Of a stretch of DNA of 64,000 nucleotides, positions 18,332 through 59,637 are shown piece by piece; position 1 is the stretch's first letter, and each line of letters begins with the position of its first letter. Below the pieces are notes generated by a model. The model was not told the DNA's origin and searched no databases. It was given only the letters and a program-made list of their open reading frames with translations. Position numbers and translations under genes: made by a program. The stretch is from Escherichia coli (GTDB taxonomy: Bacteria; Pseudomonadota; Gammaproteobacteria; Enterobacterales; Enterobacteriaceae). The stretch lies in the NCBI RefSeq assembly GCF_041248615.1, contig NZ_CP158426.1; one strand, written 5' to 3'.

Positions 18332-18363
18332 AAAAAGCCGGGGAATGATCCCCGGCTTTTTTA
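18332..18363. terminator. Bidirectional terminator between pdeA and nupC
   Basis: aaaaaagccgggg-aatgat-ccccggctttttt. Confidence 0.65.
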
Positions 18364-37872: not shown

Positions 37873-37932
37873 AATAGGGTGATGCTGCCAACTTACTGAT
37901 TTAGTGTATGATGGTGTTTTTGAGGTGCTCCA

Positions 37933-38208
37933 GTGGCTTCTGTTTCTATCAGCTGTCCCTCCTGTTCAGCTACTGACGGGGTGGTGCGTAACGGCAAAAG
38001 CACCGCCGGACATCAGCGCTATCTCTGCTCTCACTGCCGTAAAACATGGCAACTGCAGTTCACTTACACCGCTTCTCAACCCGGTACGCACCAGAAAATC
38101 ATTGATATGGCCATGAATGGCGTTGGATGCCGGGCAACCGCCCGCATTATGGGCGTTGGCCTCAACACGATTTTCCGCCATTTAAAAAACTCAGGCCGCA
38201 GTCGGTAA
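37933..38208 (+). CDS. insA: IS1 InsA
   Basis: 91 aa [43 protein letters not shown]... Confidence 0.95.
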
Positions 38209-38630
38209 CCTCGCGCATACAGCCGGGCAGTGACGTCATCGTCTGCGCGGAAATGGACGAACAGTGGGGATACGTCGGGGCTAAATCGCGCCAGCGCTGG
38301 CTGTTTTACGCGTATGACAGGCTCCGGAAGACGGTTGTTGCGCACGTATTCGGTGAACGCACTATGGCGACGCTGGGGCGTCTTATGAGCCTGCTGTCAC
38401 CCTTTGACGTGGTGATATGGATGACGGATGGCTGGCCGCTGTATGAATCCCGCCTGAAGGGAAAGCTGCACGTAATCAGCAAGCGATATACGCAGCGAAT
38501 TGAGCGGCATAACCTGAATCTGAGGCAGCACCTGGCACGGCTGGGACGGAAGTCGCTGTCGTTCTCAAAATCGGTGGAGCTGCATGACAAAGTCATCGGG
38601 CATTATCTGAACATAAAACACTATCAATAA
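38127..38630 (+). CDS. insB: IS1 InsB frame (expressed as InsAB' by -1 frameshift)
   Basis: 167-aa [19 protein letters not shown]... overlapping the insA 3' end in the -1 frame. Confidence 0.9.
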
Positions 38631-38646
38631 GTTGGAGTCATTACCT

Positions 38647-48943: not shown

Positions 48944-50275
48944 TTATGAACGGCCTTTTGCCAGATATTGCTCCATCTCTTCTTCCGGCACCATTCCACC
49001 TCCCGTCGCCCACACCAGATGAGTGGCATTACGCAGTTGTTCTGCGCTGAAACCGTGCATCTGTTGGTAACTTACTGATGCGCACACGCGCTGAGGCCCG
49101 GCCATACCCGCCAGTGCCGAAGGTTCAAGACGAATACCTTCTTCCTGCGCCAGCCAGCCAAGCATGTCATACATGGTTTGATCGCTAAGGGTATAGAAGC
49201 CATCCAGTAGACGCTCCATTGCCCGCCCGACAAAGCCTGATGCGCGACCAACTGCAAGGCCATCCGCTGCGGTAAGGTTGTCGATACCAATATCCTGAAC
49301 AGAAATCTGATCGTGTAATCCTGTATGGACGCCTAGCAGCATACAAGGGGAGTGCGTTGGTTCGGCAAAAAAGCAGTGAACATGATCGCCAAATGCCAGT
49401 TTAAGCCCGAATGCGACGCCACCAGGACCACCGCCAACACCACACGGCAGATAGACAAACAGTGGGTTATCAGCATCGACAATACGACCTTGCTCGGCAA
49501 ATTGCGCTTTAAGACGCTGGCCTGCGACGGAATACCCAAGGAACAACGTGCGGGAATTCTCGTCATCAATAAAGAAACAGTTCGGGTCAGACTGCGCTAC
49601 TTTACGTCCTTCCTCGACGGCAACACCATAATCTTGCTCATATTCCACGACCGTAACGCCATGGCTGCGCAGTTTCGCTTTTTTCCATGCCCGGGCATCA
49701 GCAGACATATGTACTGTCACCTTAAAGCCAATGCGGGCGCTCATAATGCCGATTGATAACCCCAGATTTCCGGTTGAGCCCACAGCAATGCTGTATTGAC
49801 TAAAGAACTGTTTAAACTCCGGAGAAAGCAGTTTGCTGTAGTCATCTTCAATCGTCAGCAACCCCGCTTCCAGAGCCAGTTTTTCTGCATGTGCCAGGAC
49901 TTCATAAATCCCGCCGCGTGCTTTTATGGAGCCGGAAATGGGCAAATGGCTATCTTTTTTCAGTAGCAGTTGCCCGCTGATCGGTTGTTGATATTCCTTT
50001 TCCAGCCGTTTTTGCATAGCCGGAATGGCAACCAGTTCTGATTCAATAATCCCCCCAGTAGCAGCAGTTTCAGGAAATGCTTTTGCCAGATAGGGTGCAA
50101 AACGGGATAAGCGCGCATGGGCGTCCTGAACATCCTGTTCGGTCAGGCCAACATAAGGTAAACCTTCAGCCAATGAGGTCGTGCCAGGATTAAACCAGGT
50201 GGTTTCTTTAAGAGCAACCAGATCCTTTACCAACGGATACTGGGCGATGAGCGAGTTCATTTTAGCGTTTTCCAT
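48944..50275 (-). CDS. dsdA: D-serine ammonia-lyase (dehydratase)
   Basis: 443-aa PLP enzyme, [20 protein letters not shown]..., recognised as DsdA. Confidence 0.95.
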
Positions 50276-50292
50276 AGTACGTCTCTTTGCGC

Positions 50293-50511
50293 TTAGATGA
50301 TAAATGACAGCAGGAATGTGCCCGCCAGAGCGACGACTGAAGCGATAAATGTCGCGGTCGTATAGTATTTAAATGTTTCATTGAGCGTAGCGTCGCAATA
50401 TTGCTTCACCAGCCAGAAAAGCGAGTCCGTAACGATCGTGCAGCCAATCGCACCTGAACCGATAGCAATCGCAATAATTTCCGGGCTGATGTCGGGATAC
50501 AGCGGCAGCAC
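50293..50511 (-). pseudogene. dsdX: dsdX 3' remnant (last ~70 codons of the D-serine permease gene)
   Basis: Frame ...[71 protein letters not shown] is a GntP-family C-terminus; the upstream frame hits a stop within 15 nt, so the 5' ~85% of the gene is absent. Confidence 0.8.
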
Positions 50512-50753
50512 AATGATCCATATTTATATTTTCTTCTCCAGATTGGCGATGCCAGTTGGCATGTTTTACCTACTTGCCTACATGGTTACTCGTTGGCGAG
50601 AACAGAGGCGGAATTGGGTACAATTGTCCGGGAATTATTGTTATTTTTTATTGTATTGCCGTGTCGGGTGATAGGGCGTCGAGAATATCGTTGGATCTCG
50701 CCAGTGACGTCTGTTTCTGCTACAGTGCCCGTTTTACGGCAAACGGCTTGGGT

Positions 50754-51749
50754 ATGGCTTCATTAAAGGATGTCGCACGCCTGGCGGGAGTGTCGATGAT
50801 GACAGTCTCCCGGGTGATGCATAATGCAGAATCTGTGCGTCCTGCAACGCGTGATCGCGTATTGCAGGCAATCCAGACCCTGAATTATGTTCCTGATCTT
50901 TCCGCCCGTAAGATGCGCGCTCAAGGACGTAAGCCGTCGACTCTCGCCGTGCTGGCGCAGGACACGGCCACCACTCCTTTCTCTGTTGATATTCTGCTTG
51001 CCATTGAGCAAACCGCCAGCGAGTTCGGCTGGAATAGTTTTTTAATCAATATTTTTTCTGAAGATGACGCTGCCCGCGCGGCACGTCAGCTGCTTGCCCA
51101 CCGTCCGGATGGCATTATCTATACAACAATGGGGCTGCGACATATCACGCTGCCTGAGTCTCTGTATGGTGAAAATATTGTATTGGCGAACTGTGTGGCG
51201 GATGACCCAGCGTTACCCAGTTATATCCCTGATGATTACACTGCACAATATGAATCAACACAGCATTTGCTCGCGGCGGGCTATCGTCAACCGTTATGCT
51301 TCTGGCTACCGGAAAGTGCGTTGGCAACAGGGTATCGTCGGCAGGGATTTGAGCAGGCCTGGCGTGATGCTGGACGAGATCTGGCTGAGGTGAAACAATT
51401 TCACATGGCAACAGGTGATGATCACTACACCGATCTCGCAAGTTTACTCAATGACCACTTCAAATCTGGCAAACCAGATTTTGATGTTCTGATATGTGGT
51501 AACGATCGCGCAGCCTTTGTCGCTTATCAGGTTCTCCTGGCGAAGGGGGTACGTATCCCGCAGGATGTCGCCGTAATGGGCTTTGATAATCTGGTTGGCG
51601 TCGGGCATCTGTTTTTACCGCCGCTGACCACAATTCAGCTTCCACATGACATTATCGGGCGGGAAGCTGCATTGCATATTATTGAAGGTCGTGAAGGGGG
51701 AAGAGTGACGCGGATCCCTTGCCCGCTGTTGATCCGTTGTTCCACCTGA
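50754..51749 (+). CDS. cscR: Sucrose operon repressor (LacI family)
   Basis: 331 aa from MASLKDVARLAGVSMMTVSRVMHN (LacI-type HTH); track start 50556 is a TTG over-extension. Confidence 0.9.
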   Translation: MASLKDVARLAGVSMMTVSRVMHNAESVRPATRDRVLQAIQTLNYVPDLSARKMRAQGRKPSTLAVLAQDTATTPFSVDILLAIEQTASEFGWNSFLINIFSEDDAARAARQLLAHRPDGIIYTTMGLRHITLPESLYGENIVLANCVADDPALPSYIPDDYTAQYESTQHLLAAGYRQPLCFWLPESALATGYRRQGFEQAWRDAGRDLAEVKQFHMATGDDHYTDLASLLNDHFKSGKPDFDVLICGNDRAAFVAYQVLLAKGVRIPQDVAVMGFDNLVGVGHLFLPPLTTIQLPHDIIGREAALHIIEGREGGRVTRIPCPLLIRCST

Positions 51750-51756
51750 TATTATG

Positions 51757-53190
51757 TTAACCCAGTTGCCAGAGTGCTCCATGTTGCAGCACAGCCACTC
51801 CGTGGGAGGCATAGAGCGACAGTTCCCGTTCTTCTGGCTGCGGATATATTCGGCTACTCATCACCGCCTCCCCGTCGTTAATAAATACTTCCACGGATGA
51901 TGTATCGATAAATATCCTTAGGGCGAGCATGTCACCCTGCGGGAGGGGAATACTACGGTAGCCATCTAAATTCTCGTGTGGGTAATACCGCCACAAAACA
52001 AGTCGCTCAGATTGGTTATCAATATACAGCCGCATTCCAGTGCCGAGCTGTAATCCGTAATGTTCGGCATCACTGTTCTTCAGCGCCCACTGCAACTGAA
52101 TCTCAACTGCTTGCGCGTTTTCCTGCAAAACATATTTATTGCTGATTGTGCGGGGAGAGATAGATTGATGCTGCTGGCGTAACGACTCAGCTTCGTGTAC
52201 CGGGCGTTGTAGAAGTTTGCCATTGCTCTCTGATAGCTCGCGCGCCAGCGTCATGCAGCCTGCCCAGCCTTCACGTTTTGAGGGCATTGGCGATTCCCAC
52301 ATATCCATCCAGCCGATAACAATACGCCGACCATCCTTCGCTAAAAAGCTTTGTGGTGCATAAAAGTCATGCCCGTTATCAAGTTCAGTAAAATACCCGG
52401 ATTGTGCAAAAAGTCGTCCTGGCGACCACATTCCGGGTATTACGCCACTTTGAAAGCGATTTCGGTAACTGTATCCCTCGGCATTCATTCCCTGCGGGGA
52501 AAACATCAGATAATGCTGATCGCCAAGGCTGAAAAAGTCCGGACATTCCCACATATAGCTTTCACCCGCATCAGCGTGGGCCAGTACGCGATCGAAGGTC
52601 CATTCACGCAATGAACTGCCGCGATAAAGCAAGATCTGCCCCGTGTTGCCTGGATCTTTCGCCCCGACAACCATCCACCATGTGTCGGCTTCACGCCACA
52701 CTTTAGGATCGCGGAAGTGCATGATGCCTTCTGGTGGAGTGAGGATCACGCCCTGTTTCTCGAAATGAATACCATCCCGACTGGTAGCCAGACATTGTAC
52801 TTCGCGAATTGCATCGTCATTACCAGCACCATCGAGCCAGACGTGTCCGGTGTAGATAAGTGAGAGGACACCATTGTCATCGACAGCACTACCTGAAAAA
52901 CACCCGTCTTTGTCATTCTCGTCTCCTGGCGCTAGCGCAATAGGCTCATGCTGCCAGTGGATCATATCGTCGCTGGTGGCATGTCCCCAGTGCATTGGCC
53001 CCCAGTGTTCGCTCATCGGGTGATGTTGATAAAACGCGTGATAACGATCGTTAAACCAGATCAGGCCGTTTGGATCGTTCATCCACCCGGCAGGAGGCGC
53101 GAGGTGAAAATGGGGATAGAAAGTGTTACCTCGGCGCTCGTGAAGTTTTGCTAGTGCGTTTTGCGCCGCATGTAATCGAGATTGCGTCAT
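51757..53190 (-). CDS. cscA: Sucrose-6-phosphate hydrolase / invertase (GH32)
   Basis: 477 aa from MTQSRLHAAQNALAKL; GH32 motifs WMNDPNG and RDP. Confidence 0.9.
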   Translation of the reverse strand: MTQSRLHAAQNALAKLHERRGNTFYPHFHLAPPAGWMNDPNGLIWFNDRYHAFYQHHPMSEHWGPMHWGHATSDDMIHWQHEPIALAPGDENDKDGCFSGSAVDDNGVLSLIYTGHVWLDGAGNDDAIREVQCLATSRDGIHFEKQGVILTPPEGIMHFRDPKVWREADTWWMVVGAKDPGNTGQILLYRGSSLREWTFDRVLAHADAGESYMWECPDFFSLGDQHYLMFSPQGMNAEGYSYRNRFQSGVIPGMWSPGRLFAQSGYFTELDNGHDFYAPQSFLAKDGRRIVIGWMDMWESPMPSKREGWAGCMTLARELSESNGKLLQRPVHEAESLRQQHQSISPRTISNKYVLQENAQAVEIQLQWALKNSDAEHYGLQLGTGMRLYIDNQSERLVLWRYYPHENLDGYRSIPLPQGDMLALRIFIDTSSVEVFINDGEAVMSSRIYPQPEERELSLYASHGVAVLQHGALWQLG

Positions 53191-53405
53191 TTTTATCATC
53201 CTGGTTAAGCAAATTTGGTGAATTGTTAACGTTAACTTTTATAAAAATAAAGTCCCTTACTTTCATAAATGCGATGAATATCACAAATGTTAACGTTAAC
53301 TATGACGTTTTGTGATCGAATATGCATGTTTTAGTAAATCCATGACGATTTTGCGAAAAAGAGGTTTATCACTATGCGTAAGTCAGATGAATTTAAGGGA
53401 AAAAA

Positions 53406-54329
53406 ATGTCAGCCAAAGTATGGGTTTTAGGGGATGCGGTCGTAGATCTCTTGCCAGAATCAGACGGGCGGCTACTGCCTTGTCCTGGCGGCGCGCCAGC
53501 TAACGTTGCGGTGGGAATCGCCAGATTAGGCGGAACAAGTGGGTTTATAGGTCGGGTCGGTGATGATCCTTTTGGTGCGTTAATGCAAAGAACGCTGCTA
53601 ACTGAGGGTGTCGATATCACGTTTCTGAAGCAAGATGAATGGCACCGGACATCCACGGTGCTTGTCGATCTGAACGATCAAGGAGAACGTTCATTTACGT
53701 TTATGGTCCGCCCCAGTGCCGATCTTTTTTTAGAGACGACAGACTTGCCCCGCTGGCGACATGGCGAATGGTTACATCTCTGTTCAATTGCGTTGTCTGC
53801 CGAGCCTTCGCGTACCAGCGCATTTACTGCGATGACGGCGATCCGGCATGCCGGAGGTTTTGTCAGCTTCGATCCCAATATTCGTGAAGATCTATGGCAA
53901 GACGAGCATTTGCTCCGCTTGTGTTTGCGGCAGGCGCTACAACTGGCGGATGTCGTCAAGCTCTCGGAAGAAGAATGGCGACTTATCAGTGGAAAAACAC
54001 AGAACGATCGGGATATATGCGCCCTGGCAAAAGAGTATGAGATCGCCATGCTGTTGGTGACTAAAGGTGCAGAAGGGGTGGTGGTCTGTTATCGAGGACA
54101 AGTTCACCATTTTGCTGGAATGTCTGTGAATTGTGTCGATAGCACTGGGGCGGGAGATGCGTTCGTTGCCGGGTTACTCACAGGTCTGTCCTCTACGGGA
54201 TTATCTACAGATGAGAGAGAAATGCGACGAATTATCGATCTCGCTCAACGTTGCGGAGCGCTTGCAGTAACAGCGAAAGGGGCAATGACAGCGCTGCCAT
54301 GTCGACAAGAACTGGAAGGTGAGAAGTAA
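53406..54329 (+). CDS. cscK: Fructokinase (pfkB/ribokinase family)
   Basis: 307 aa, MSAKVWVLGDAVVDLL...GAGDAF motifs. Confidence 0.9.
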   Translation: MSAKVWVLGDAVVDLLPESDGRLLPCPGGAPANVAVGIARLGGTSGFIGRVGDDPFGALMQRTLLTEGVDITFLKQDEWHRTSTVLVDLNDQGERSFTFMVRPSADLFLETTDLPRWRHGEWLHLCSIALSAEPSRTSAFTAMTAIRHAGGFVSFDPNIREDLWQDEHLLRLCLRQALQLADVVKLSEEEWRLISGKTQNDRDICALAKEYEIAMLLVTKGAEGVVVCYRGQVHHFAGMSVNCVDSTGAGDAFVAGLLTGLSSTGLSTDEREMRRIIDLAQRCGALAVTAKGAMTALPCRQELEGEK

Positions 54330-54390
54330 ACGGCGAGGCCGCTCTTATCTCTAAATAGGACATGAATTTTTTAACGACAGGCAGGTAATT

Positions 54391-55638
54391 ATGGCACTGA
54401 ATATTCCATTCAGAAATGCGTACTATCGTTTTGCATCCAGTTACTCATTTCTCTTTTTTATTTCCTGGTCGCTGTGGTGGTCGTTATACGCTATTTGGCT
54501 GAAAGGACATCTAGGATTAACAGGGACGGAATTAGGTACACTTTATTCGGTCAACCAGTTTACCAGCATTCTATTTATGATGTTCTACGGCATCGTTCAG
54601 GATAAACTCGGTCTGAAGAAACCGCTCATCTGGTGTATGAGTTTCATTCTGGTCTTGACCGGACCGTTTATGATTTACGTTTATGAACCGTTACTGCAAA
54701 GCAATTTTTCTGTAGGTCTAATTCTGGGGGCGCTCTTTTTTGGCCTGGGGTATCTGGCGGGATGCGGTTTGCTTGACAGCTTCACCGAAAAAATGGCGCG
54801 AAATTTTCATTTCGAATATGGAACAGCGCGCGCCTGGGGATCTTTTGGCTATGCTATTGGCGCGTTCTTTGCCGGTATATTTTTTAGTATCAGTCCCCAT
54901 ATCAACTTCTGGTTGGTCTCGCTATTTGGCGCTGTATTTATGATGATCAACATGCGTTTTAAAGATAAGGATCACCAGTGCATAGCGGCGGATGCGGGAG
55001 GGGTAAAAAAAGAGGATTTTATCGCAGTTTTCAAGGATCGAAACTTCTGGGTTTTCGTCATATTTATTGTGGGGACGTGGTCTTTCTATAACATTTTTGA
55101 TCAACAACTCTTTCCTGTCTTTTATGCAGGTTTATTCGAATCACACGATGTAGGAACGCGCCTGTATGGTTATCTCAACTCATTCCAGGTGGTACTCGAA
55201 GCGCTGTGCATGGCGATTATTCCTTTCTTTGTGAATCGGGTAGGGCCAAAAAATGCATTACTTATCGGTGTTGTGATTATGGCGTTGCGTATCCTTTCTT
55301 GCGCGCTGTTCGTTAACCCCTGGATTATTTCATTAGTGAAGCTGTTACATGCCATTGAGGTTCCACTTTGTGTCATATCCGTCTTCAAATACAGCGTGGC
55401 AAACTTTGATAAGCGCCTGTCGTCGACGATCTTTCTGATTGGTTTTCAAATTGCCAGTTCGCTTGGGATTGTGCTGCTTTCAACGCCGACTGGGATACTC
55501 TTTGACCACGCAGGCTACCAGACAGTTTTCTTCGCAATTTCGGGTATTGTCTGCCTGATGTTGCTATTTGGCATTTTCTTCCTGAGTAAAAAACGCGAGC
55601 AAATAGTTATGGAAACGCCTGTACCTTCAGCAATATAG
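54391..55638 (+). CDS. cscB: Sucrose:H+ symporter (MFS oligosaccharide:H+ symporter family)
   Basis: 415-aa 12-TM MFS protein, LacY-like. Confidence 0.9.
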   Translation: MALNIPFRNAYYRFASSYSFLFFISWSLWWSLYAIWLKGHLGLTGTELGTLYSVNQFTSILFMMFYGIVQDKLGLKKPLIWCMSFILVLTGPFMIYVYEPLLQSNFSVGLILGALFFGLGYLAGCGLLDSFTEKMARNFHFEYGTARAWGSFGYAIGAFFAGIFFSISPHINFWLVSLFGAVFMMINMRFKDKDHQCIAADAGGVKKEDFIAVFKDRNFWVFVIFIVGTWSFYNIFDQQLFPVFYAGLFESHDVGTRLYGYLNSFQVVLEALCMAIIPFFVNRVGPKNALLIGVVIMALRILSCALFVNPWIISLVKLLHAIEVPLCVISVFKYSVANFDKRLSSTIFLIGFQIASSLGIVLLSTPTGILFDHAGYQTVFFAISGIVCLMLLFGIFFLSKKREQIVMETPVPSAI

Positions 55639-56079
55639 ACGTAAACTTTTTCCGGTTGTTGTCGATATCTCCATATCCCTCAACCGGAAAATAATAATAC
55701 AAAAATGCTTAGCCCAACTAATAATCACCTAATCCAAACGCCTCATTCATGTTCTGGTACAGTCGCTCAAATGTACTCCGGATACGCGGTTCGCTGATTT
55801 CCAGGACATTGTCGTCATTCAGCGACCTGTCCCGAGTATCACGGGCCTGCGAATTCATCAAGGAATGCATTGCAGAGTGAAGTATCGAGTCACGCCATAT
55901 TTCGCTATCAGGATTCTGTATGATGGTTACATCGCCCAGCCCAGGGCTGTTTAGTCATCAGCGCTTTCTGACAGTGCTGAGATTTCAACCTGTTGCAGTA
56001 AAAATGAGTAGATATAGGGCAAGTGTGCTGCCAAACCCATCTTTTACGGGGTGAAGGTAGATTTGGTTTGAAGGGTATC

Positions 56080-56154
56080 TGGTGTCCCCTGCAGGAATCG
56101 AACCTGCAATTAGCCCTTAGGAGGGGCTCGTTATATCCATTTAACTAAGAGGAC
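56080..56154 (-). tRNA. argW: tRNA-Arg (anticodon CCU)
   Basis: Reverse complement reads GTCCTCTTAGTTAAATGGATATAACGAGCCCCTCCTAAGGGCTAATTGCAGGTTCGATTCCTGCAGGGGACACCA. Confidence 0.9.
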
Positions 56155-56229
56155 AATGCGGCATGAGTATACCCGCTAATGGACTGCGGGGTAAGTACGC
56201 TGCCGCTCGATTGCTTAAACCCTCGCCAT

Positions 56230-57162
56230 TTATGCCGGGTTTTTATCATTTTTCTTAATGTTTTCCGCACGTTCTGCTTTTTGGCGTGCTTCTGCTTTGC
56301 GCTTGTTGCTCATGTCGTTGCGGATCTGTGCATGACTCATTAACGCGAAGATAAAGGTGCCGCCGCAGATGTTCCCCGCTAAAGTAGGTAGTGCGAAGGG
56401 CCAGATGAAATCGCTCCAGTGCAGCGTACCGTTAAACACCAGATAGAGGATTTCAACAGAACCGACAACGATGTGAGTGGTGTCACCCAGGGCAATAAGC
56501 CAGGTCATCAATATAATCACCACAATCTTTGCCGCACCCGCTGCAGGAAACATCCAAACCATAGTGGCGATCAGCCAGCCGGAAATGATCGCGTTGGCAA
56601 ACATCTCGCTGGGGGTGTTCTTCATCACATCCATGCCGATTTTGACAAATGCATCGCGAGTTTCTTCATTGAAGATTGGCATATATTCAAATGCCCACGC
56701 CGCAATACCTGTCCCGAGAATATTACCCAGCAGCACGACGCCCCATAACCGCATAAGTAAGCCAACGTTGCTCATTGTCGGTTTTTGCATGACGGGTAGT
56801 ACCGCAGTCACGGTGTTTTCGGTAAATAATTGCTGGCGGGCCATAATGACGATAATAAAACCAAAGGTATAACCGAGATTCTCAAGCAAGAAGCTGCCCG
56901 GCACGCCTTCCAGTTCGACATGAAATATCCCTTTTGCCAGTAATGACGCGCCCATCGACAGACCCGCCGCAATGGCTGACCACAGTAGTGCCATTGCGTC
57001 GCGTTCCAGCTCTTTTTCACCATCCTGGCGGATATGCTCATGAATTGCCATCGCCCGGGAGGGGAGTCGGTCTTCATCTATTTCTATTTTTTTGCCGCGC
57101 TCTTTTTCTTCGCTCTCAACTTCAATTTCGTCGCTGTGTTGATCAATTTTGTCGTTGTCCAT
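56230..57162 (-). CDS. yfdC: Formate/nitrite transporter family inner membrane protein
   Basis: 310-aa ORF with charged N-terminal extension and FNT-like TM core. Confidence 0.85.
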   Translation of the reverse strand: MDNDKIDQHSDEIEVESEEKERGKKIEIDEDRLPSRAMAIHEHIRQDGEKELERDAMALLWSAIAAGLSMGASLLAKGIFHVELEGVPGSFLLENLGYTFGFIIVIMARQQLFTENTVTAVLPVMQKPTMSNVGLLMRLWGVVLLGNILGTGIAAWAFEYMPIFNEETRDAFVKIGMDVMKNTPSEMFANAIISGWLIATMVWMFPAAGAAKIVVIILMTWLIALGDTTHIVVGSVEILYLVFNGTLHWSDFIWPFALPTLAGNICGGTFIFALMSHAQIRNDMSNKRKAEARQKAERAENIKKNDKNPA

Positions 57163-58389: not shown

Positions 58390-59637
58390 TTAATTATCAT
58401 CAAAATTAACACCCAATGCAGATAGTTGATTAATTTCATTTTGATATTTAGCCTGGCGATTTTGAAGCCTTTTTTCAACTTTATCTTCGATTTCCTTAAA
58501 GTGGTCATATTTATTTTGAGAACGGTCAACTTCGTTATCGACTAAAGTAGAAATTATTTCTTTTACATTATCGCGTCTAAATTTTGCATCGTCTACTTGA
58601 AAATTATATCTTATTGCTCGACCTAAACGTTTAAAAACTTCGTTTGGCTCTCTCAGTCTTTCCCCGTTGAGCTCGTTTACAACCTGATGATCGGAACCTG
58701 TTGCAAATGATTCTGCCATGATAGCTTTACTGCTTTCAAACCACGCTGAAGCATTCCTGGCTTTTTCACTACAATATTGGGTGAGACTATCACCATTAAT
58801 ACGAATTCCTCTTTGAATGTGGTAGTCGTCCTGATCATAGTAACCGAGAGATAAGTAATCATTTCCGTTTTTATTTTTAATTACAATAGCGAGAGAATCG
58901 CCTTTTTTATCTTTACCGTACCAGGTAAATAAGTCCGTTGGTTCGCTTTTCCCATTCTCATCAAATTCCGTTATCGTATGTCTGAGTTTTTGTGATATCT
59001 TATCGAAGATAAAACCAGGATCTCCATCATATATTTCTTTTAATGCGCTGAAGATCATTTCCTTGTTATTGATATCATGAGTATTCTCTACTACATTTTC
59101 ATGGATGATGGTTTGGCCGACTTTTTTGTTTTCATCGTTCGTAGGTGATTTTATTGGTTCTTGATTATAGATACCACTAGTAATATCGGCTGTATCATTG
59201 GAGTCAATAGCACCCTCATTACCACTAACAACGATACTACCATCAGTAAAGTCAGCATTATTTATATCATTATGAGTCTTCTCAACTATGTTGTCATTAA
59301 TGATAGCACGGACGAGTTCTTTGTCTTTATAGCTCGCAAGTAATTTTATTGTTTCTTGGTTATCGATACCAATAGTAATATAGTCTGTATCATTGGAGCT
59401 AATATCAATATAAGTAACTGAGGAATTATTAATATTAAATCTATCAGGATTGTCGTTTCCTCGTATGGCGTTTTTTATAAGCGCAAGTAGATGTTTAACA
59501 CAGGTGCTTATTCCTTCCTTACCATTAAAAAGGTTTTTGAGCTCTTGTACTAATCCATTAACTTCATCATTGTTATTTTCATTGATGGATTCTGTGTAAG
59601 CTGCGCTGGTATTGTTGATTGAAATAGATGGTAGCAT
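58390..59637 (-). CDS. yfdF: AT-rich protein of unknown function with internal 65-aa tandem repeat
   Basis: Start placed at MLPSISINNTSAAYTESINENNND (track extends to 59700); N/D/K-rich, no signal peptide or TM segment; position between mlaA and fadL matches K-12 yfdF. Confidence 0.7.
   Translation of the reverse strand: MLPSISINNTSAAYTESINENNNDEVNGLVQELKNLFNGKEGISTCVKHLLALIKNAIRGNDNPDRFNINNSSVTYIDISSNDTDYITIGIDNQETIKLLASYKDKELVRAIINDNIVEKTHNDINNADFTDGSIVVSGNEGAIDSNDTADITSGIYNQEPIKSPTNDENKKVGQTIIHENVVENTHDINNKEMIFSALKEIYDGDPGFIFDKISQKLRHTITEFDENGKSEPTDLFTWYGKDKKGDSLAIVIKNKNGNDYLSLGYYDQDDYHIQRGIRINGDSLTQYCSEKARNASAWFESSKAIMAESFATGSDHQVVNELNGERLREPNEVFKRLGRAIRYNFQVDDAKFRRDNVKEIISTLVDNEVDRSQNKYDHFKEIEDKVEKRLQNRQAKYQNEINQLSALGVNFDDN

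What the first reader, a model, noticed from the sequence alone, without database searches (positions are those of the whole stretch)
50512..56079. cscRAKB sucrose catabolism island occupies the argW-dsdA interval
Between the dsdX 3' remnant and tRNA-Arg argW lie cscR (+), cscA (-), cscK (+) and cscB (+), with cscA and cscKB diverging from a shared 215-bp control region (53191-53405). K-12, as I recall it, has dsdC, dsdX and a prophage with its integrase at this tRNA instead. The island is only about 5.5 kb and carries no intact integrase or transposase. This is a known alternative occupant of the argW site in sucrose-positive E. coli, not a new system, but it is the main accessory block in the window.
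Basis: partly seen in the sequence, partly recalled or inferred. Interest (0 to 1): 0.5.

Follow-up and report, generated by a model that had tools for sequence, protein, structure and literature searches.

The report
Known E. coli sucrose-use gene island
This is the well-known four-gene csc sucrose-utilisation cluster that about half of E. coli strains carry next to the argW tRNA gene in place of two D-serine genes; it is intact here and ordinary.

Summary
A 5,569-bp block (50511-56079) lies between a 72-codon 3' remnant of dsdX and the 3' end of tRNA-Arg(CCU) argW. It holds intact cscR (+), cscA (-), cscK (+) and cscB (+). cscA and cscKB diverge from a 215-bp control region. That region carries two perfect 12-bp palindromes (GTTAACGTTAAC) and two CRP-like sites.

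The block is 100% identical to a clinical E. coli chromosome. It is present in 2,645 of 5,426 complete E. coli genomes. E. coli B has dsdC and full dsdX at this position, and K-12 has these plus the CPS-53 prophage.

The locus, its position, the loss of dsdC/dsdX, the operators and the CRP sites are all already published.

Additions from this work:
- A frameshifted DUF4942 pseudogene scar lies between cscB and argW, left by a decayed CP4-like island.
- There is no integrase, no att repeat and no GC anomaly, so the block is fixed and not mobile.
- The operator pair with 63-64 bp spacing, and the tail-to-tail cscA/cscR arrangement, are conserved across many Enterobacterales.

Verdict: real, correctly interpreted, already known, low interest.

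The parts
48944..50275 (-). dsdA, intact D-serine ammonia-lyase (context). It is left without its activator gene dsdC.
   Evidence: TIGR02035 at 810.8 bits. RefSeq annotation. Reported as silent in csc-type strains in PMC7486766.
50293..50510 (-). dsdX 3' remnant, residues about 374-445 of the 445-aa D-serine transporter
   Evidence: NF007395 profile positions 374-445 of 445. Homology to E. coli B and K-12 dsdX stops at 50510. RefSeq marks it as a partial pseudogene.
50511..50753 (.). Left end of the island and cscR upstream region (243 bp)
   Evidence: Found once per genome in 2,691 E. coli genomes. It abuts the dsdX remnant in all 20 rows listed.
50754..51749 (+). cscR, LacI-family repressor of the csc regulon (331 aa)
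   Evidence: PF00356 plus PF00532. Its cluster includes the E. coli W 'Sucrose operon repressor'. One residue differs from a RefSeq-named cscR.
51757..53190 (-). cscA, cytoplasmic GH32 sucrose hydrolase (invertase), 477 aa
   Evidence: PF00251 at 355 bits plus PF08244. Motifs WMNDPNG at 36, RDP at 160 and EC at 215 are present, with no internal stops.
53191..53405 (.). Divergent cscA / cscKB control region (215 bp)
53225..53236 (.). CscR operator O1 (GTTAACGTTAAC), proximal to cscA. It is inferred to cover the cscA transcription start.
   Evidence: These are the only two matches in 64 kb, against 0.16 expected. Invariant in an 8-species alignment. PMC11251922, citing Jahreis 2002, describes two 12-bp inverted repeats here.
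53289..53300 (.). CscR operator O2 (GTTAACGTTAAC), 64 bp from O1
   Evidence: The 63-64 bp spacing holds in 46 of 50 csc-linked operator pairs in other genera.
53270..53285 (.). CRP site 1 (TGCGATGAATATCACA, 9/10 to consensus). Inferred to be a class II site for PcscA.
   Evidence: Conserved as TGyGA-N6-TCACA in alignment A1. PMC3938415 reports two cAMP-CRP sites in the bidirectional csc promoter.
53311..53326 (.). CRP site 2 (TGTGATCGAATATGCA, 7/10). The left half TGTGAT is invariant. Inferred to be a class I site for PcscKB.
   Evidence: PMC3938415.
53406..54329 (+). cscK, PfkB-family fructokinase (307 aa)
   Evidence: NF006957 fructokinase at 506.8 bits against a cut-off of 450. DSTGAGD motif at residue 245.
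54391..55638 (+). cscB, LacY-family sucrose:H+ symporter (415 aa)
   Evidence: PF01306 at 644 bits. The exact sequence is named 'Sucrose permease ... CSCB_ECOLX'.
55648..55691 (+). Stable hairpin just after the cscB stop codon. It is a candidate 3'-end structure of the cscKB transcript and has no U-tract.
   Evidence: MFE -18.4 kcal/mol, z = -4.5, 0 of 200 shuffles as stable. The terminator scan did not call it.
55727..56013 (-). DUF4942 pseudogene remnant (aa about 38-151 of a 281-aa protein, with a frameshift and stop codons). It is a scar of a CP4-like island once sited at argW. It is probably EDL933 z3622, though that equivalence rests on position only and was not checked.
   Evidence: tblastn at 50% identity, E = 1e-18, plus a second out-of-frame piece. 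PF13708 at E = 8e-6. The intact homologue lies a few genes downstream of the cbtA/yeeU toxin-antitoxin genes in a CP4-like island. Present in 2,623 genomes.
56080..56154 (-). argW, tRNA-Arg(CCU). This is the right boundary and a known integration hotspot.
   Evidence: ARAGORN. Rfam at 63.4 bits. Identical to argW of E. coli B.

Best explanation
This is the chromosomal csc (non-PTS sucrose catabolism) regulon of E. coli in its usual place.

Pathway: CscB imports sucrose with a proton. CscA, a GH32 invertase, hydrolyses it in the cytoplasm to glucose and fructose. CscK phosphorylates the fructose. The host glucokinase, glk, is also in this window.

Regulation: the LacI-type repressor CscR binds two identical 12-bp palindromes in the 215-bp divergent control region and keeps cscA and cscKB off. 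cAMP-CRP at two sites is needed for activation. Expression therefore needs sucrose and the absence of glucose.

Inferred promoter geometry: PcscA has a -10 TATTTT at 53249-53244 (minus strand), CRP1 at about -41.5, O1 over +1 and O2 just upstream of CRP1. PcscKB has a conserved TATCAC at 53367-72 as its -10 and CRP2 at about -61.5.

Status of the block: it is a fixed, non-mobile replacement of dsdC plus the first 373 or so codons of dsdX. As a result dsdA is orphaned, and such strains gain sucrose use but lose D-serine use and tolerance.

Origin: an old insertion at argW followed by deletions on both sides, since spread within E. coli by homologous recombination of the flanks. This last point is inference.
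For: Gene content and order. All four ORFs are full length with catalytic motifs.

Junctions lie at 50510/50511 and 56079/56080 relative to E. coli B and K-12.

The locus is 100% identical to NZ_OW967178.1, and 2,645 of 5,426 complete genomes cover at least 80% of it. The left junction and the right-hand scar are present at 80% or more coverage in 2,656 and 2,623 genomes respectively, close to the number that carry csc.

Operators occur only in the control region. They are invariant across Pluralibacter, Tatumella, Rosenbergiella and Citrobacter, while the surrounding sequence diverges. The 63-64 bp spacing holds in 46 of 50 csc-linked pairs from other genera, although 54-74 bp was allowed by the search. 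CRP sites score 9/10 and 7/10.

Literature:
- Location of the csc regulon between argW and dsdX, and loss of D-serine use: PMC3032704.
- dsdC and part of dsdX substituted in EDL933: PMC4366372.
- CscR represses cscBKA, and dsdA is silent unless PcscA is brought next to it: PMC7486766.
- Two 12-bp repeats, an operator mutation and a CRP site: PMC11251922.
- Two CRP sites, an absolute cyaA requirement, and a high sucrose threshold: PMC3938415.
Against: Nothing contradicts the identification, but several points are weaker than the rest.
- No phenotype can be tested here. Many csc+ strains grow only slowly, or only above about 1% sucrose (PMC3938415, PMC11251922).
- The simple sigma-70 scan found no promoter-like site in the island. 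The promoter positions are my inference from conservation and CRP spacing, not mapped starts.
- Neither operator overlaps the inferred PcscKB core promoter, so how CscR represses cscKB is not explained by simple occlusion.
- The primary papers (Jahreis 2002; Moritz & Welch 2006) were not readable here.
Confidence: 0.95

Rival explanations
1. The block is a still-mobile genomic island (an integrative element) that can excise from and re-integrate at argW.
For: It abuts the 3' end of a tRNA gene that is a documented integration hotspot. It also carries a fragment of a mobile-island gene, DUF4942.
Against: There is no integrase or transposase, and no room for one. The window has no second copy of the argW 3' end, so there are no att repeats. 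GC is 0.481 against 0.488 for the window. The junctions present in essentially every carrier are the same ones. No true plasmid carries the block.
Confidence: 0.02
2. The cluster is a decayed, cryptic locus that no longer supports sucrose use in this strain.
For: Many csc+ E. coli are scored sucrose-negative or slow growers (PMC11251922). CscR repression is tight below about 1% sucrose (PMC3938415).
Against: All four ORFs are intact with catalytic motifs. The CscB sequence carries the UniRef cluster name of the characterised EC3132 permease CSCB_ECOLX, and is probably identical to it. Operators and CRP sites are perfect or conserved.
Confidence: 0.05
3. It is a PTS-type scr sucrose regulon, or a fructo-oligosaccharide/raffinose cluster, rather than csc. 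RefSeq labels cscA as 'sucrose-6-phosphate hydrolase'.
For: CscA passes the scrB_fam subfamily model TIGR01322. PGAP names it sucrose-6-phosphate hydrolase. Plasmid-borne GH32/LacI/MFS clusters share 66-68% DNA identity over part of the block.
Against: The block has no EII (ScrA) and no porin (ScrY). The transporter is a LacY-type symporter (PF01306, 644 bits), so the substrate reaches the cytoplasm unphosphorylated. The proteins fall in the named CscB and CscR clusters.
Confidence: 0.01

Closest known systems
csc regulon of E. coli EC3132 / W / O157:H7 EDL933 (z3623-z3626)
   Same: It has the same four genes, order, orientation, divergent control region with two 12-bp operators and two CRP sites, and the same chromosomal site with a truncated dsdX. 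The CscB sequence carries the CSCB_ECOLX name.
   Different: There are only allelic differences, 1-7 residues per protein against another RefSeq csc locus. In this strain argW carries no prophage, whereas W, EDL933-like strains and many others have a further element inserted at argW.
dsdCXA D-serine locus (E. coli B, K-12, UPEC)
   Same: It occupies the same argW-emrY interval, and dsdA and the last 72 codons of dsdX are shared.
   Different: dsdC and the first 373 or so codons of dsdX are absent here and replaced by csc. K-12 additionally has the 10-kb CPS-53 prophage with intS.
scr PTS sucrose regulon (pUR400 / Klebsiella scrKYABR)
   Same: Both are sucrose catabolism systems with a GH32 hydrolase, a fructokinase and a LacI-type repressor with paired operators and CRP control.
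   Different: scr takes up sucrose through the ScrY porin and ScrA EII, and hydrolyses sucrose-6-phosphate. csc uses a proton symporter and hydrolyses free sucrose.
csc-like clusters of other Enterobacterales (Pluralibacter, Tatumella, Rosenbergiella, C. amalonaticus; Yersinia/Serratia/Rahnella/Proteus variants)
   Same: They share the perfect GTTAACGTTAAC operator pair at 63-64 bp and the convergent cscA/cscR pair.
   Different: Protein identity is 60-75% in most of these genera, and 86-92% in C. amalonaticus. Many of the variants have an MFS transporter only about 40% identical to CscB, and no adjacent cscK was detected. None has the DUF4942 scar. Whether they lie next to argW was not examined.

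Membership tests
E. coli csc regulon (cscRAKB) | LacY-family sucrose:H+ symporter CscB | tested here: met
   PF01306 at 644.4 bits and TIGR00882 at 594.6 bits. The exact sequence is named CSCB_ECOLX.
E. coli csc regulon (cscRAKB) | GH32 invertase CscA with nucleophile, RDP and EC motifs | tested here: met
   PF00251 plus PF08244. WMNDPNG at 36, RDP at 160, EC at 215.
E. coli csc regulon (cscRAKB) | PfkB fructokinase CscK | tested here: met
   NF006957 at 506.8 bits, above the 450 cut-off. DSTGAGD motif present.
E. coli csc regulon (cscRAKB) | LacI-family repressor CscR | tested here: met
   PF00356 plus PF00532. Its cluster includes the E. coli W Csc repressor.
E. coli csc regulon (cscRAKB) | cscA and cscKB divergent from one control region with two 12-bp inverted-repeat operators and two CRP sites | tested here: met
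   Described in PMC11251922 and PMC3938415.
E. coli csc regulon (cscRAKB) | Chromosomal site between argW and dsdA, replacing dsdC and the 5' part of dsdX | tested here: met
   PMC3032704 and PMC4366372.
E. coli csc regulon (cscRAKB) | Sucrose-inducible, cAMP-dependent growth on sucrose | not testable with these tools
   This needs culture work. The sequence is intact.
scr PTS sucrose regulon | ScrA EIIBC transporter and ScrY porin | tested here: not met
   Only four genes fit in the block, and none is a PTS or porin gene.
tRNA-integrated mobile genomic island | Integrase next to the tRNA | tested here: not met
   There are 441 bp between cscB and argW, holding only a DUF4942 pseudogene.
tRNA-integrated mobile genomic island | Direct repeat of the tRNA 3' end at the far boundary | tested here: not met
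   The window has no second copy of the argW 3' 12-15 nt, even with one mismatch allowed.
tRNA-integrated mobile genomic island | Atypical base composition | tested here: not met
   GC is 0.481 against 0.488 for the window.

The most novel reading that the evidence does not exclude
Two conserved architectural features may add an unstudied layer of control.

First, cscA and cscR are tail to tail, with only 7 bp between their stop codons and no terminator or stable structure downstream. The same arrangement recurs across Enterobacterales: the gap is -31 to +7 bp in 13 of 18 adjacent pairs. Induced cscA transcription may therefore run antisense through cscR, and on toward dsdX'-dsdA. That would lower repressor synthesis and give positive feedback.

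Second, the operator pair is locked at 63-64 bp, about six helical turns, in 46 of 50 loci. This could mean that CscR represses both divergent promoters cooperatively or through a DNA loop. That would explain repression of PcscKB even though no operator lies over its core promoter.
Probability: 0.2. Interest if true: 0.3.

Novelty: already known. Interest (0 to 1): 0.08.

Why it matters
The locus matters as annotation rather than discovery. It predicts that the strain can use sucrose, probably only at high concentration unless cscR or an operator mutates. It also predicts that the strain cannot use D-serine and is inhibited by it, a trade-off linked in the literature to gut versus urinary niche (PMC4366372, PMC7486766). 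The locus is also the module used to engineer sucrose-fed industrial E. coli. Nothing here opens a new question.

Tried and rejected
- The primary papers could not be read: Moritz & Welch 2006 (PMC1698345) and Jahreis 2002 are not held. I relied on four open papers that cite them.
- The sigma-70 consensus scan gave 0 sites in the island, against 8.1 expected by chance. This is uninformative for CRP-dependent promoters.
- The terminator scan found nothing convincing after cscA, cscR or cscB. Folding the 160 nt downstream of cscA gave less structure than shuffled sequence, z = +2.2.
- Rfam found only the tRNA.
- The plasmid search found no csc on genuine plasmids. Of the four full-length hits, three are 1.4-4.9 Mb records that look like mislabelled chromosomes and one is a 365-kb record I did not inspect; the rest are 66-68% homologues.
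- I tested the idea that csc travelled as cargo of a CP4-like island. The DUF4942 scar supports a former island at argW in E. coli, but no DUF4942 lies near csc-like loci of other genera. The link is positional, not shown.
- I looked for intermediate forms with a longer scar. The 90%-identity variant has the same layout plus a prophage at argW. Another strain has lost csc through an IS3-linked deletion.
Full report
**Observation**

| Feature | Coordinates | Strand | Note |
|---|---|---|---|
| dsdA | 48944-50275 | - | intact |
| dsdX remnant | 50293-50511 | - | 72-codon ORF; matches only positions 374-445 of the 445-residue DsdX model |
| cscR | 50754-51749 | + | LacI-family regulator, RefSeq start |
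| cscA | 51757-53190 | - | GH32 enzyme |
| cscK | 53406-54329 | + | PfkB fructokinase; NF006957 at 506.8 bits, cut-off 450 |
| cscB | 54391-55638 | + | LacY-type symporter; PF01306 at 644 bits |
| argW | 56080-56154 | - | tRNA-Arg(CCU) |
| yfdC, mlaA | beyond argW | | flanking genes |

All four csc ORFs are full length without internal stops. CscA carries the GH32 motifs WMNDPNG, RDP and EC, and CscK carries DSTGAGD.

**Boundaries**

BLAST of the window against E. coli B (argW-dsdC-dsdX-dsdA, no prophage) and against K-12 loses homology at 50510 inside dsdX. It regains homology exactly at the last base of argW, 56080. K-12 reads argW-intS...CPS-53...torI-pawZ-dsdC-dsdX-dsdA.

The island is therefore 50511-56079, 5,569 bp. 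The non-coding pieces are 243, 7, 215, 61 and 441 bp, which leaves no room for an integrase or transposase. The window has no second copy of the argW 3' end. GC is 0.481 against 0.488 for the window. The block is fixed, not a mobile element.

**Identity and frequency**

Window 50000-56400 is 100% identical to the chromosome of clinical E. coli isolate 362, NZ_OW967178.1. At least 80% of it is present in 2,645 of 5,426 complete E. coli genomes. A 98.9% identical locus is annotated by RefSeq as cscR, cscA, cscK and cscB, and the proteins differ by 1-7 residues.

An exact-sequence look-up returns the name 'Sucrose permease ... CSCB_ECOLX' for CscB. It places CscR in the cluster holding the E. coli W 'Sucrose operon repressor'.

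The 250-bp dsdX'-cscR junction occurs once per genome in 2,691 genomes, next to the dsdX remnant in every row listed. The 441 bp between cscB and argW occur in 2,623 genomes. This points to one ancestral arrangement shared by essentially all carriers.

No genuine plasmid carries the block. Of the four full-length 'plasmid' hits, three are 1.4-4.9 Mb records that look like mislabelled chromosomes and the fourth is a 365-kb record I did not inspect. All other hits are 66-68% homologues.

**Control region**

GTTAACGTTAAC occurs exactly twice in the 64-kb window, at 53225-36 and 53289-300, against 0.16 expected by chance.

A scan of one genome per species for two such palindromes 42-62 nt apart found 111 loci. 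The 80 returned were examined. In them, 50 operator pairs lie within 400 bp of Csc homologues. The genera include Yersinia, Serratia, Rahnella, Proteus, Pantoea, Pluralibacter, Tatumella, Rosenbergiella, Pectobacterium and Citrobacter amalonaticus. In 46 of the 50 pairs the start-to-start spacing is 63-64 bp, although 54-74 bp was allowed.

An alignment of the cscA-cscK/B intergenic region from eight loci has a mean column identity of 67%. The following elements stand out:
- O1, ATTGTTAACGTTAAC, invariant.
- O2, TGTTAACGTTAAC, invariant.
- A CRP site, TGyGA-N6-TCACA, largely conserved; here it is 53270-85 and scores 9/10.
- TGTGAT, the left half of a second CRP-like site, invariant; here the site is 53311-26 and scores 7/10.
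- TATCA.T at 53367-73, invariant.

This agrees with published descriptions: two 12-bp inverted repeats, one hit by an up-mutation, plus a CRP site next to the cscA -35 (PMC11251922, citing Jahreis 2002), and two cAMP-CRP sites in the bidirectional promoter with an absolute cyaA requirement (PMC3938415).

My inferred geometry, which is not mapped experimentally, is as follows. PcscA has a -10 TATTTT at 53249-44 (minus strand), CRP1 at about -41.5, O1 over +1 and O2 just upstream. PcscKB has a -10 TATCAC at 53367-72 and CRP2 at about -61.5.

**Mechanism**

These steps are established for the family and inferred for this copy. CscB imports sucrose with a proton. CscA hydrolyses it to glucose and fructose. 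CscK makes fructose-6-phosphate. CscR represses both operons until sucrose is abundant, and cAMP-CRP is required.

Because dsdC and most of dsdX are gone, dsdA is silent and D-serine is toxic (PMC4366372). Deletions that bring PcscA next to dsdA reactivate it (PMC7486766). The geometry needed for that is present here: cscA and dsdA are co-directional, with cscR antisense between them.

**Additional anatomy**

Between cscB and argW lies a frameshifted remnant at about 55727-56013 (minus strand). It corresponds to residues about 38-151 of a 281-aa DUF4942 protein. Its intact homologue sits a few genes downstream of the cbtA/yeeU toxin-antitoxin genes in CP4-like islands.

In strains with another element at argW, a 23-bp argW' repeat follows this scar. 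The csc block plus scar is therefore the resident sequence into which newer elements integrate. I infer an old argW insertion trimmed by deletions on both sides. No DUF4942 accompanies csc-like loci in other genera.

A stable hairpin follows cscB at 55648-91 (z = -4.5) but has no U-tract.

cscA and cscR end 7 bp apart. No terminator was found and no stable fold lies downstream. This tail-to-tail arrangement is conserved in other genera.

**Comparison and verdict**

Every defining feature of the E. coli csc regulon that could be tested is met. The features of the scr PTS regulon and of an active integrative island are not met. The locus, its site, its regulatory elements and its D-serine trade-off are all in the literature (PMC3032704, PMC4366372, PMC7486766, PMC11251922, PMC3938415). 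The finding is already known and of low interest.

The only unexcluded novelty is regulatory fine structure: antisense read-through into cscR, and cooperative or looped operators. I rate this at about 0.2 probability and modest interest.

Noticed in passing
window 37878-38645: An IS1 copy sits where K-12 has about 3.9 kb: the 5' part of oxc, then frc and yfdX, up to ypdI. This strain has therefore lost frc and yfdX and has a truncated oxc, all oxalate/acid-resistance genes. Only 2 of 5,426 complete genomes share this junction.
   Followed up: partly
window 55727-56013 (-): A frameshifted DUF4942 pseudogene lies between cscB and argW.
   Followed up: yes
window 51747-51759: The cscR and cscA stop codons are 7 bp apart, tail to tail. 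No terminator or stable structure lies downstream of cscA. Gaps of -31 to +7 bp recur in 13 of 18 convergent cscA/cscR pairs in other Enterobacterales. Overlapping convergent transcription is possible.
   Followed up: partly
L009-L087 (other genera): The perfect GTTAACGTTAAC operator pair at 63-64 bp is shared by csc-like clusters of many Enterobacterales. Most of these use an MFS transporter only about 40% identical to CscB, and no adjacent cscK was detected. Bacillus and Neobacillus loci have the same palindrome pair, mostly at 65 bp, next to a LacI regulator only 25% identical to CscR.
   Followed up: partly
window 18341-18352: K-12's IS186C, between nupC and pdeA, is absent here. The flanks join directly.
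   Followed up: no
window 58390-59700 (-): The region next to mlaA (yfdF in K-12) is AT-rich (GC 0.31-0.38). It encodes a 436-aa ORF, against 352 aa for K-12 yfdF, and RefSeq calls it hypothetical. There is a small rearrangement relative to K-12 near 59212-59258.
   Followed up: no
window 51757-53190 and 53406-54329: Database names are misleading. PGAP labels CscA 'sucrose-6-phosphate hydrolase' and CscK 'aminoimidazole riboside kinase' in most records. PMC11251922 calls CscA a sucrose phosphorylase, but the sequence is a GH32 hydrolase.
   Followed up: yes
L120 (NZ_CP074977.1) and L119 (NZ_CM128600.1): These are variants of the same site. One strain keeps only dsdX' plus 132 bp of the csc left end, next to an IS3 element and a P22-like prophage. 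The other has csc plus a CPS-53/lambdoid prophage with torI abutting the csc block.
   Followed up: partly
window 55648-55691: A stable hairpin (z = -4.5) lies directly after the cscB stop codon. It is flanked by a T-run upstream and an A-run downstream, so it is not a canonical terminator on either strand.
   Followed up: partly
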